IMG/VR virus record: IMGVR_UViG_3300032226_000829
Length of the DNA stretch: 64,000 nucleotides
Reading direction: 5' to 3' (one strand)
From: a virus
Taxonomy: Duplodnaviria; Caudoviricetes
Below are positions 39,450 through 39,721 of this stretch, one piece after another. Numbering within the stretch: position 1 is the first letter of the stretch; every line of letters begins with the position of its first letter. The position numbers and the translations under genes are program-made. The notes below the pieces were generated by a model. The model did not search any database. It saw only the letters and a list, made by a program, of their open reading frames with translations, and was not told the origin of the DNA.

Positions 39450-39534
39450 TGGTGGGAGAAGAGGGACTTGAACCCTCAATCCATTGCTGGCGCTGCATTT
39501 TGAGTGCAGTTCGTATGCATTCCGACATTCTCCC
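39450..39534 (-). tRNA. tRNA-Leu(CAA)
   Basis: Loop CTCAAAA, long variable arm, CCA; D-loop lacks GG. Confidence 0.88.
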
Positions 39535-39536
39535 AT

Positions 39537-39685
39537 ATGATCCATAGCCGGGATTCTGTTCTATGCCGTCATCTGTCTCTGCGTCCTACCCACAGTGTGC
39601 CTGACCATTCACTGCCTACATGGACTCGCACTTGTCAGGAGTGTCCCGAACTTCCTCAGCATTATGGCTGCGACGGCTCGATCAT
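39537..39685 (-). ncRNA. rnpB: Minimal RNase P RNA (catalytic domain only, 149 nt)
   Basis: GAGGAAGUUCGGGA (CR-I), AGACAGAUG (CR-IV), ACAGAAUCCCGGCUA (CR-V); hand-paired P1, P2, P3, P4 with bulged U, P5, P6 pseudoknot, P15 with GGU loop, P16. Confidence 0.9.
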
Positions 39686-39691
39686 GTGATT

Positions 39692-39721
39692 ATTATAGCA
39701 TGGTTTAGTATCAATGAGCAA
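39692..39721 (-). promoter_or_regulatory. Promoter of the RNase P RNA-tRNA transcript (TTGCTC-18-TGcTATAAT)
   Basis: Extended -10; predicted start site coincides with the 5' end of P1. Confidence 0.7.

What the first reader, a model, noticed from the sequence alone, without database searches (positions are those of the whole stretch)
39450..39721. The RNase P RNA is itself the 5' leader of the first tRNA in the cluster
Seen: an extended -10 promoter (TGcTATAAT, 39692-39700) puts the start site at about 39685, the first base of P1. P1 ends at 39537 and tRNA-Leu(CAA) starts at 39534, leaving 2 nt. tRNAs Leu(GAG), Glu and Gly follow at 1-6 nt spacing. Inference: one transcript carries the ribozyme and its substrates, and RNase P cleavage at tRNA-Leu +1 would also create the ribozyme's 3' end. 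This could be a self-maturing tRNA-supply module that works in cis or trans and depends less on host RNase P.
Basis: partly seen in the sequence, partly recalled or inferred. Interest (0 to 1): 0.8.

Follow-up and report, generated by a model that had tools for sequence, protein, structure and literature searches.

The report
Phage mini RNase P fused to tRNAs
An uncultured lake jumbo phage carries a 149-base, stripped-down copy of the RNase P ribozyme whose gene starts at its own promoter and runs, two bases later, straight into a row of tRNA genes, so the cut that matures the first tRNA should also finish the ribozyme; the layout is kept in every relative found, but whether the ribozyme frees itself is untested.

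Summary
On the minus strand, TGcTATAAT (39700-39692) lies 6 nt before a 149-nt RNase P RNA-like gene (39685-39537). Two bases later (AU) tRNA-Leu(CAA) starts at 39534, followed by Leu(GAG), Glu and Gly at 1, 2 and 6 nt spacing.

The RNA is a catalytic domain only, far below Rfam's threshold. It belongs to a family of at least 50 distinct phage RNase P-like RNAs of 149 to about 440 nt with abundant compensatory changes. Two full-size members pass Rfam's bacterial class A cut-off.

- All 17 contigs with the 149-nt form keep the same order: -35 TTGC, TGYTATAAT, the ribozyme, then tRNA-Leu(CAA) after 2 or 4 nt. The upstream genes, tRNA alleles and array orders differ among them.
- Across the wider family, 17 of 50 have a tRNA within 12 nt downstream, against 0.85 expected by chance.

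Co-transcription, and 3' end formation by an RNase P cut, are therefore well supported by inference. Cleavage in cis and independence from the host are not shown. Four near-complete relatives encode no RnpA protein.

The closest precedent is the yeast mitochondrial tRNAfMet-RPM1-tRNAPro unit. No paper on phage RNase P RNA turned up. This scan noted the same arrangement before on other phage DNA.

The parts
39716..39734 (-). Promoter upstream half: A/T-rich AAATAATTTTT (39734-39724) and the -35-like TTGCTC (39721-39716), directly after the stop codon of the peroxiredoxin gene (39731-39729)
   Evidence: Sequence. TTGC sits 17-18 nt before the -10 and an AATAATT-like tract is kept in at least 6 unrelated upstream contexts of relatives. 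It aligns with two other promoter-like sites of this phage at 21638 and 27882.
39692..39700 (-). Extended -10 TGcTATAAT. The predicted start site is A39685, 7 nt after the last T
   Evidence: TGYTATAAT is conserved 5-6 nt before P1 in 17 of 17 contigs.
39537..39685 (-). 149-nt RNase P RNA-like gene, catalytic domain only. P1 39685-39680/39542-39537; P2 39677-39672/39570-39565; P3 hairpin 39670-39657; P4 39652-39644/39553-39546 with bulged U39649; P5 closed as a hairpin 39643-39629 where the specificity domain would be; P15/P16 39625-39583 with L15 GGGUA (GGU 39590-39588); J2/4 AUAGAACAGAA 39564-39554
   Evidence: Rfam RNaseP_arch 28.3 bits, E 2.8e-6. A family profile built without this sequence hits only here: 2e-11 and 2.4e-5. 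Covariation in P1, P2, P3, P5, P15 and P16 and in P4.
39535..39536 (-). 2-nt junction AU between P1 and tRNA-Leu +1. U is at -1 and A at -2
   Evidence: Relatives have AU or A-N-A-G here.
39450..39534 (-). tRNA-Leu(CAA), CCA encoded. It is the first tRNA after the ribozyme
   Evidence: ARAGORN; Rfam tRNA 51.7 bits. A tRNA-Leu(CAA) follows the RNA in 17 of 17 relatives, in at least two different alleles.
39208..39448 (-). tRNA-Leu(GAG) 39448-39365, tRNA-Glu(UUC) 39362-39288 and tRNA-Gly(GCC) 39281-39208, with spacers of 1, 2 and 6 nt. All encode CCA
38932..39204 (-). 90-aa ORF of no known family, between the two tRNA sub-clusters. It is absent from the sister contig L081
38532..38927 (-). Second tRNA sub-cluster (Pro 38885-38809, Val 38805-38731, Gln 38724-38651, Arg 38606-38532). 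It has its own promoter-like sites, TTGATT-17-TATACT, at 38927-38899 and 38643-38615
   Evidence: Only the first four tRNAs have no promoter other than the one before the ribozyme.
38520..38546 (-). Terminator-like hairpin plus T-run at the end of the array. It overlaps the 3' end of tRNA-Arg

Best explanation
The 149-nt RNA is a phage-encoded RNase P RNA derived from the bacterial type A form, without a specificity domain. It is made as the 5' portion of a polycistronic precursor.

Proposed sequence of events:
1. A sigma-70-type extended -10 promoter (TTGCTC-18-TGcTATAAT) starts transcription at or next to the first base of P1 (A39685), so the 5' end needs no processing.
2. Transcription runs without a stop through the 2-nt junction into tRNA-Leu(CAA), Leu(GAG), Glu and Gly.
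3. An RNase P-type cut at tRNA-Leu +1 releases the ribozyme with a 2-nt 3' tail and so defines its 3' end. Cuts at the other tRNA 5' ends separate the tightly packed, CCA-encoding tRNAs, whose 1-6-nt trailers are left to exonucleases.
4. The first cuts are most likely made in trans by the host holoenzyme. Later cuts are possibly made by the released phage RNA working with the host RnpA protein.

With no specificity domain, substrate binding would rest mainly on the acceptor stem and on pairing of the L15 GGU with the 3' CCA.

Shown here: the sequence architecture and its conservation, and covariation in the RNA. Inferred: transcription start, co-transcription, the cleavage, and catalytic activity of the phage RNA.
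For: Identity of the RNA:
- The P4, J2/4 and L15 motifs are present, and there is a weak but specific Rfam hit with only the S-domain deleted.
- At least 70 viral loci (50 clusters) share GAGGAAGUUCGNGAC ... ACAGAAUCN'CGGCUA, with N and N' always complementary (GGG/CCC, GCG/CGC, GAG/CUC).
- RNAalifold recovers P1, P2, P3, P5, P15 and P16; 24 of 28 pairs carry compensatory changes.
- Two full-size members reach RNaseP_bact_a at 168 and 158 bits.
- A family profile that excludes this sequence hits the window only here.

Selection on the 149-nt form: there are 12 distinct sequences with 29 variable positions. The changes lie in loops or keep pairing (two double CG->UA swaps in P2; U.G<->C-G in P4). 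The catalytic core is invariant.

Unit structure:
- 17 of 17 contigs keep TTGC-17/18-TGYTATAAT 5-6 nt before P1 and tRNA-Leu(CAA) 2 or 4 nt after P1. This holds across at least 6 upstream contexts, 7 junction variants and at least 6 array orders.
- No terminator-like site lies between 39729 and 39208 on this strand.
- The second sub-cluster has its own promoter-like sites, but the first four tRNAs have none.

Wider family:
- 17 of 50 have a tRNA within 12 nt downstream and 15 of 50 have one within 12 nt upstream. All 621 tRNAs are co-oriented with the RNA. Chance expectation for the downstream case is 0.85.
- 13 of 19 spacers end in U at -1.
- Independent promoter-RNA-tRNA cases exist in L091 and L020.
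- 112 of 114 tRNAs in the 149-nt clade encode CCA, which matches the retained L15 GGU.

Precedent: the yeast mitochondrial tRNAfMet-RPM1-tRNAPro unit has a promoter before RPM1 and pre-RPM1-tRNAPro intermediates (PMC3866640, PMC3790967).
Against: - There are no RNA data, so the start site, co-transcription and cleavage are all inferred.
- The RNA scores far below Rfam's threshold and lacks the whole specificity domain. Established work on E. coli shows that catalytic-domain-only constructs cleave poorly (PMC5839562 abstract).
- A virus-borne RNase P-like RNA (camelpox) was inactive in vitro (PMC3001073).
- No RnpA gene is present in 4 complete or near-complete relatives, so any activity in vivo would need a host or unknown protein.
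- TGNTATAAT is only mildly enriched in the window.
- No terminator follows the upstream peroxiredoxin gene, so 5'-extended read-through forms are possible.
- A 6-bp P1 directly before the cleavage site leaves a mostly base-paired leader, which may hinder protein-leader contacts.
Confidence: 0.7

Rival explanations
1. Self-cleavage in cis. The nascent ribozyme folds, docks the tRNA-Leu that is tethered 2 nt from its own 3' end, and cuts itself free. The module then matures without host RNase P RNA.
For: The covalent linkage is conserved in 17 of 17 relatives with very short spacers. Loss of the specificity domain removes binding energy, which tethering could replace. Substrates or guide sequences tethered to M1 RNA, including at its 3' end, are cleaved (M1GS and tethered pre-tRNA constructs, reviewed in PMC11143913). 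Yeast Rpm1r precursors retain some activity (PMC3790967).
Against: - Spacer length is not fixed: 2 or 4 nt here, 3-12 nt in the family. About half of the family has no abutting downstream tRNA, and 15 of 50 are abutted upstream instead. That pattern fits generic tRNA punctuation.
- A 2-nt linker from the outer end of a stacked 6-bp P1 probably cannot reach the P4 active site unless P1 melts. This is my geometric inference, not a computation.
- Only the first tRNA would benefit from tethering.
- No RnpA is encoded by the phage relatives.
Confidence: 0.12
2. The RNA is not a working ribozyme. It is a structured 5' leader or decoy that only host RNase P removes. It might stabilise or time the tRNA precursor, or bind the host RnpA protein and so redirect or inhibit host RNase P.
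For: No specificity domain, sub-threshold Rfam score. No phage RnpA. The camelpox RNase P-like RNA was catalytically inactive (PMC3001073). The regions that bind RnpA in bacterial enzymes (P2-P4, J2/4; established knowledge) are the ones retained.
Against: The catalytic core is invariant across 12 variants, and conserved across the wider family, while loops drift. This covers the P4 bulged U, J2/4 ACAGAA, the J5/15-like CCAUGUAG (CCAAAUAG in some variants) and L15 GGGUA. Full-size phage homologues pass the class A model. Near-universal encoded CCA in the accompanying tRNAs matches a working L15. A decoy would not need all of these.
Confidence: 0.15
3. Separate transcription units. The ribozyme and the tRNAs are made from different promoters, or the ribozyme transcript ends before the tRNA, so the adjacency is only gene packing.
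For: Phage genomes are tightly packed. A weak promoter-like match (ATCACA-18-CATAAT, 9 of 12) lies inside the RNA at 39690-39661.
Against: Two bases cannot hold a terminator or a promoter. No terminator-like site was found. The internal match sits at the RNA's 5' end, so it would still transcribe nearly the whole ribozyme together with the tRNA. The last 45 nt of the RNA are the invariant J2/4-P4-P1 core, with no -10/-35 pair that meets the scan's criteria.
Confidence: 0.03

Closest known systems
Bacterial type A RNase P RNA (E. coli M1 RNA / rnpB; Rfam RF00010)
   Same: The P1-P2-P3-P4 core with the P2/P4 pseudoknot; three base pairs, a bulged U, then five base pairs in P4; J2/4 ACAGAA; P15 with L15 GGGUA, which in E. 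coli pairs with the tRNA 3' CCA. As for rnpB, the primary 5' end probably equals the mature 5' end. Full-size phage relatives score 158-168 bits on RF00010.
   Different: 149 nt instead of about 380. The whole specificity domain (P7-P14, CR-II/III) is replaced by a 5-bp hairpin, and P18 and P6 are absent. CR-I reads GAGGAAGUUCG instead of GAGGAAAGUCC. It is carried by a phage, has no rnpA partner gene, and its 3' end abuts a tRNA rather than a terminator.
Yeast mitochondrial tRNAfMet-RPM1-tRNAPro transcription unit (PMC3866640, PMC3790967)
   Same: An RNase P RNA gene sits between or next to tRNA genes on one transcript, with a promoter directly before the RNase P RNA. RPM1-tRNAPro precursors are resolved by tRNA-processing endonucleases. 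The RNAs are strongly reduced, down to about 150 nt in Saccharomycopsis fibuligera.
   Different: That is an organelle, not a virus. The RNAs are A/U-rich with a different pattern of reduction, a dedicated protein (Rpm2p) is known, and the junction is not a 2-4-nt butt joint as far as I know.
Phage T4 tRNA cluster with stable RNAs rnaC and rnaD
   Same: A T4-type phage tRNA array in which non-tRNA stable RNAs abut a tRNA (1 and 6 nt gaps) and are released from the same precursor (annotation). tRNAs less than 5 nt apart are processed by RNase P (PMC11143913).
   Different: rnaC and rnaD lie 3' of tRNA-Arg and show no RNase P RNA similarity. T4 relies wholly on host RNase P.
Engineered RNase P RNA-substrate conjugates (M1GS; tethered pre-tRNA-M1 RNA; reviewed in PMC11143913)
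   Same: Covalent linkage of the ribozyme to its substrate or guide, including at the ribozyme's 3' end.
   Different: These are artificial. In M1GS the tethered part is the guide (the 3' half of the acceptor stem), not the 5' leader. Intramolecular cleavage has been shown for those constructs but not here.
Theta (minimal HDV-like) ribozymes next to phage tRNAs (bioRxiv 10.1101/2023.06.13.544163)
   Same: A phage-encoded ribozyme placed directly beside phage tRNA genes and proposed to take part in their maturation.
   Different: A different ribozyme class (self-cleaving, HDV-like), a different side of the tRNA, and no relation to RNase P.
Orthopoxvirus (camelpox) RNase P-like RNA (PMC3001073)
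   Same: A virus-borne RNA with some secondary-structure resemblance to RNase P RNA.
   Different: A eukaryotic virus; no tRNA context; inactive in vitro. The phage family keeps the bacterial catalytic core and shows covariation.

Membership tests
RNase P RNA, bacterial type A lineage | P4 helix formed by CR-I and CR-V with a bulged U, crossing P2 (pseudoknot) | tested here: met
   34-42 pair with 133-140, with U37 bulged. Covariation at 40/135 across the family (GGG/CCC, GCG/CGC, GAG/CUC) and at 36/138 (U.G<->C-G).
RNase P RNA, bacterial type A lineage | P1, P2, P3, P5, P15 and P16 in canonical order, supported by covariation | tested here: met
   RNAalifold on 37 sequences: 24 of 28 pairs carry compensatory changes. 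Within the 149-nt clade P2, P3 and P5 co-vary.
RNase P RNA, bacterial type A lineage | L15 GGU motif for the tRNA 3' CCA, and the J5/15 A-rich strand | tested here: met
   GGGUA at 39591-39587 is invariant. CCAUGUAG, or CCAAAUAG in some variants, precedes P16. 112 of 114 accompanying tRNAs encode CCA.
RNase P RNA, bacterial type A lineage | Specificity domain (P7-P14, CR-II and CR-III) | tested here: not met
   The Rfam alignment deletes 133 model positions. A 5-bp hairpin (39643-39629) closes P5.
RNase P RNA, bacterial type A lineage | Score at or above Rfam's gathering threshold | tested here: not met
   28.3 bits against 84 for RF00373, and no RNase P call at gathering. Larger relatives L177 and L110 do pass RF00010.
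RNase P RNA, bacterial type A lineage | Cleaves pre-tRNA 5' leaders (catalysis) | not testable with these tools
   Needs an in vitro or complementation assay.
tRNA-flanked RNase P RNA transcription unit (yeast mitochondrial RPM1 type) | The RNase P RNA gene abuts co-oriented tRNA gene(s), with a promoter directly before the RNase P RNA | tested here: met
   2-nt junction. The promoter is conserved in 17 of 17. In the family, 24 of 50 are abutted on one or both sides and all 621 tRNAs are co-oriented.
tRNA-flanked RNase P RNA transcription unit (yeast mitochondrial RPM1 type) | A ribozyme-tRNA precursor exists and is resolved by RNase P | not testable with these tools
   No transcript data for this phage.
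Self-cleaving ribozyme-substrate conjugate | Intramolecular (concentration-independent) cleavage at the junction | not testable with these tools
   Only indirect evidence: variable spacers and non-adjacent relatives argue against an obligatory cis mechanism.
T4 rnaC/rnaD stable RNAs | Sequence or structure homology to T4 species 1 or species 2 RNA | tested here: not met
   No RNase P-like motifs and no Rfam clan hit in T4 70908-71171.

The most novel reading that the evidence does not exclude
The unit is a natural ribozyme-substrate fusion that works without host RNase P RNA. The nascent 149-nt catalytic domain, compensated for its missing specificity domain by tethering and by CCA pairing, would cut itself from tRNA-Leu. 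It would then process the phage's own tightly packed tRNAs, including elbow-variant tRNAs that a host enzyme reading the elbow might handle poorly. That would give the phage a private tRNA-maturation pathway that host shut-off or defence cannot touch.
Probability: 0.12. Interest if true: 0.92.

Novelty: new variant of a known kind. Interest (0 to 1): 0.8.

Why it matters
RNase P RNA is regarded as a universal cellular ribozyme. The 2024 review that I searched for phage terms (PMC11143913) and every literature search I ran treat phages only as sources of substrates. Four points follow if this holds.

- A large phage-borne family, reaching down to 149 nt with no specificity domain, would be among the smallest natural RNase P RNAs. 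It is comparable to the smallest mitochondrial ones. It offers a natural test of how little RNA is needed to recognise and cut pre-tRNA.
- The conserved promoter-ribozyme-tRNA unit is a natural counterpart of engineered tethered ribozymes. It also shows convergence with the yeast mitochondrial RPM1 unit.
- It bears on why jumbo phages carry big tRNA arrays, and on whether they also bring processing capacity.
- The 149-nt RNA with its abutting tRNA is a compact construct that can be tested directly in vitro.

Tried and rejected
- Rfam at gathering score finds no RNase P in the window. Only the permissive search does.
- Minimum-free-energy folding of the RNA alone, or with tRNA-Leu, gives z-scores of about 0. 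This is uninformative for a pseudoknotted RNA. It does show P1, P2 and the tRNA cloverleaf folding side by side.
- blastn against 50,697 cultured-phage records finds no relative of the 149-nt form or of a 196-nt relative. Only Stenotrophomonas phage DLP_6 carries a homologue: 245 nt, unannotated, 7 nt before tRNA-Arg(CCG).
- Homology to T4 rnaC/rnaD is rejected.
- The window's own genome is not held, so RnpA could not be sought in it. PF00825 was absent from 5 relatives' records, 4 of them at least 98% complete.
- ARAGORN finds no tRNA or tmRNA inside the tRNA-like insertion of some larger relatives.
- An internal promoter for the tRNAs is rejected. The only match is weak and lies at the RNA's 5' end.
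- I did not build a covariance model (calibration time for a model of more than 200 positions). I did not use the count of structure pairs (it needs a long typed structure string). Pair counts were made with RNAalifold and a script instead.
- An early script mis-oriented plus-strand loci. This was corrected.
- Literature searches for a phage or viral RNase P RNA found nothing relevant beyond the camelpox RNA.

Full report
**What is at the site**

All of the following is read on the minus strand.
- A 1-Cys peroxiredoxin gene (40367-39729; AhpC-TSA plus 1-cysPrx_C) ends with TAA at 39731-39729.
- The next 43 nt hold an A/T-rich tract, TTGCTC (39721-39716), an 18-nt spacer that ends in TG, and TATAAT (39697-39692).
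- Six bases later, A39685 opens a 6-bp helix with U39537.
- tRNA-Leu(CAA) begins at 39534, according to both ARAGORN and Rfam. This leaves the spacer AU.
- tRNA-Leu(GAG), Glu and Gly follow after 1, 2 and 6 nt.
- A 90-aa ORF of no known family comes next.
- tRNA-Pro, Val, Gln and Arg follow, and then a hairpin with a T-run.
- All eight tRNAs encode CCA.

**Is the 149-nt stretch an RNase P RNA?**

Rfam does not call it at gathering score. A permissive scan gives RNaseP_arch 28.3 bits (cut-off 84), E 2.8e-6. The alignment runs end to end over the model but deletes 133 positions, which are the specificity domain.

Read by eye, the RNA has these elements:
- P1 (AUGAUC/GAUCAU) and P2 (GCCGUC/GACGGC).
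- A small P3 hairpin.
- CR-I as GAGGAAGUUCGGGAC, pairing with CR-V ACAGAAUCCCGGCUA to give a P4 of three pairs, a bulged U, and five pairs.
- A 5-bp hairpin where P5 would open into the specificity domain.
- P15 (GUCC/GGAC) enclosing P16, with GGGUA on the 3' side. In E. coli M1 RNA this same pentamer carries the GGU that pairs with the tRNA CCA (established knowledge).

The thermodynamic z-score is about 0, as expected for a pseudoknotted RNA.

**Relatives**

Exact-pattern scans of IMG/VR with each P4 strand returned 85 and more than 119 loci. In 70 loci both strands occur in the right order, 98-392 nt apart. The free position is always complementary: GGG/CCC, GCG/CGC, and once GAG/CUC. The loci collapse to 50 clusters at 90% identity, with RNA lengths from 149 to about 440 nt.

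Further support for a real family:
- RNAalifold on 37 of the shorter members recovers P1, P2, P3, P5, P15 and P16. Of 28 pairs, 24 show compensatory changes.
- Two full-size members (L177, L110) score 168 and 158 bits on RNaseP_bact_a, above its cut-off of 100. Twelve other members tested do not reach it.
- A profile HMM built without the window and its sister hits the window at 39591-39539 (2e-11) and 39683-39632 (2.4e-5), and nowhere else with significance.

So this is a graded family of phage-borne RNase P RNAs derived from type A, and the window holds its smallest form. Among cultured phages only Stenotrophomonas phage DLP_6 has one, unannotated, 7 nt before tRNA-Arg(CCG).

**The 149-nt clade**

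One IMG/VR contig (L081) and 15 lake metagenome contigs carry the same-length RNA. There are 12 distinct sequences with 29 variable positions.
- Nineteen variable positions are unpaired. They lie mostly in the P3, P5 and P16 loops and in J15/2.
- The ten in helices mostly keep pairing. Two adjacent C-G pairs of P2 become U-A in two sequences. Other changes are A-U to G.U in P3, U-A to U.G and C.A to C-G in P5, and U.G to C-G at 36/138 in P4.
- P4, J2/4, P15 and L15 never vary.

This is the pattern of a functional structured RNA, not of a decaying remnant.

**The unit promoter-ribozyme-tRNA**

In all 17 contigs TGYTATAAT ends 5-6 nt before P1, with TTGC 17-18 nt upstream of the hexamer. The sequence between and beyond these elements falls into at least six unrelated contexts. 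That is a phylogenetic footprint of a promoter. It matters because the motif alone is only mildly enriched in the window (7 against 3.0 +/- 1.9). The site also aligns with two intergenic promoter-like sites of the same phage, at 21638 and 27882.

Downstream, all 17 have a tRNA-Leu(CAA). It comes after AU (alleles starting GGGAG or GGGCG) or after A-N-A-G (alleles starting GCCCUG, GCCUUG or GCCCAA). That gives seven junction variants and at least six different tRNA orders further on. In the sister contig L081 the upstream gene, promoter and RNA are the same to within 1 nt. The tRNA allele, the spacer and the array differ, and the 90-aa ORF is missing. The boundary of exchange lies exactly at the ribozyme's 3' end, and yet a tRNA is always there.

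**The wider family**

Among the 50 clusters:
- 17 have a co-oriented tRNA starting within 12 nt of P1.
- 15 have one ending within 12 nt before P1.
- 8 have both.
- 38 have one within 300 nt.
- All 621 tRNAs in these loci are on the RNA's strand.

Uniform placement within each locus predicts 0.85 downstream-adjacent cases (Poisson P about 8e-17). Spacers are A/U-rich, and 13 of 19 end in U at -1, the base that bacterial RNase P prefers (established knowledge). Some upstream tRNA-like 3' ends are missed by ARAGORN, so these counts are lower bounds. L091 (TGATATAAT 7 nt before P1; tRNA-Met 10 nt after) and L020 (TTGACT-17-TACAAT) are independent cases of a promoter placed at P1.

Co-transcription is the only reasonable reading. 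Two bases cannot hold a terminator or a promoter, none is detected, and the first four tRNAs have no other promoter. The second sub-cluster, by contrast, has two TTGATT-17-TATACT sites of its own. The ribozyme has no 3'-end signal except the tRNA, so an RNase P-type cut at +1 of tRNA-Leu is the natural way to make its 3' end.

This mirrors the yeast mitochondrial tRNAfMet-RPM1-tRNAPro unit. That unit has a promoter before RPM1 and pre-RPM1-tRNAPro intermediates (PMC3866640, PMC3790967).

The comparative data do not favour an obligatory cis reaction:
- Spacer lengths vary.
- Half the family lacks an abutting downstream tRNA.
- Many members are punctuated by an upstream tRNA instead, as if the RNA were one more unit of the array.
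- The two full-size members are not next to tRNAs at all.
- By my own geometric reasoning, a 2-nt linker from the far end of a stacked 6-bp P1 is short for reaching the P4 active site unless P1 frays. This was not computed.

Independence from the host is also doubtful. No RnpA (PF00825) was found in four records that are at least 98% complete, while the control genomes were detected. Bacterial RNase P RNAs need that protein in vivo (established knowledge).

The near-universal encoded CCA (112 of 114) and the median 6-nt spacing of tRNAs in this clade fit an enzyme that recognises substrates through L15-CCA pairing. They also fit an array that is resolved mainly by RNase P cuts.

**Known or new**

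Searches of the paper library for phage or viral RNase P RNA found nothing relevant. A 2024 review, which I checked only by searching it for phage terms, mentions phages at those places as sources of tRNA substrates and other RNase P substrates. The only virus-borne RNase P-like RNA I found described is the inactive camelpox RNA. Theta ribozymes beside phage tRNAs are a conceptual neighbour of a different class. T4's rnaC and rnaD show that T4-type tRNA clusters can carry other stable RNAs, but they are unrelated.

This scan has itself noted the same arrangement on other phage DNA. I used those notes only as agreement, not as evidence.

**Verdict**

- The architecture, and co-transcription with a shared RNase P cut, are strongly supported by inference.
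- Catalytic activity of the 149-nt RNA is likely but unproven.
- Cleavage in cis and independence from the host are unsupported.
- This is a new variant of a known kind (RNase P RNA, and the tRNA-punctuated RPM1-like unit), and of high interest.

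Noticed in passing
L012:341-682 (-), L080:5483-5827 (+), L026:336-683 (+): In these larger phage RNase P-like RNAs the variable region at the specificity-domain position holds an insertion of about 135 nt. It has a tRNA-like acceptor stem (GGGGCAU...AUGUUCC), a GGGUUCGAAUCCC T-arm and a terminal ACCA. ARAGORN calls no tRNA or tmRNA there. It could be a built-in tRNA mimic or an inserted tRNA-derived element.
   Followed up: partly
window 38899-38927 and 38615-38643 (-): Two near-identical promoter-like cassettes, TTGATT-17-TATACT, both containing AATCACATATACT. 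They sit 7-13 nt and 2-8 nt before tRNA-Pro and tRNA-Arg. The second tRNA sub-cluster therefore seems to have its own promoters with very short leaders.
   Followed up: partly
window 38932-39204 (-): A 90-aa ORF with no Pfam family sits between tRNA-Gly and tRNA-Pro. It starts 3 nt after the tRNA's CCA and is absent from the sister contig L081, where the tRNAs form one uninterrupted array.
   Followed up: partly
window 39729-40367 (-): A phage-encoded 1-Cys peroxiredoxin (AhpC-TSA 5.6e-32 plus 1-cysPrx_C, PVCTTE active site) lies directly upstream of the ribozyme promoter, with no terminator between them.
   Followed up: partly
L001 (KU682439.2 105774-106018): Cultured Stenotrophomonas phage vB_SmaS-DLP_6 has an unannotated 245-nt RNase P RNA-like gene in a gap labelled 'none', 7 nt before tRNA-Arg(CCG). 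It is the only isolate found with a family member, and so a possible laboratory model.
   Followed up: partly
L177:7348-7705, L110:8540-8900: Two IMG/VR contigs carry full-size RNase P RNAs that pass Rfam class A (168 and 158 bits) and share the phage-family CR-I signature GAGGAAGUUCGGGAC. Unlike the reduced forms, they lie more than 1 kb from the nearest tRNA.
   Followed up: partly
window 35860-35930 (-): Rfam finds a tRNA (42.7 bits) that ARAGORN does not report.
   Followed up: no
window 39534-39450 versus L081 7491-7406: The tRNA-Leu(CAA) that follows the ribozyme exists in two very different alleles among strains. The window's allele (GGGAGAAUGUCGGAAUGCAUAC...) lacks the usual D-loop GG, while the other (GCCCUGAUGAUGGAAUGGUAGAC...) is canonical. 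U-1 of the window's junction can pair with the discriminator A73 in the MFE fold.
   Followed up: no
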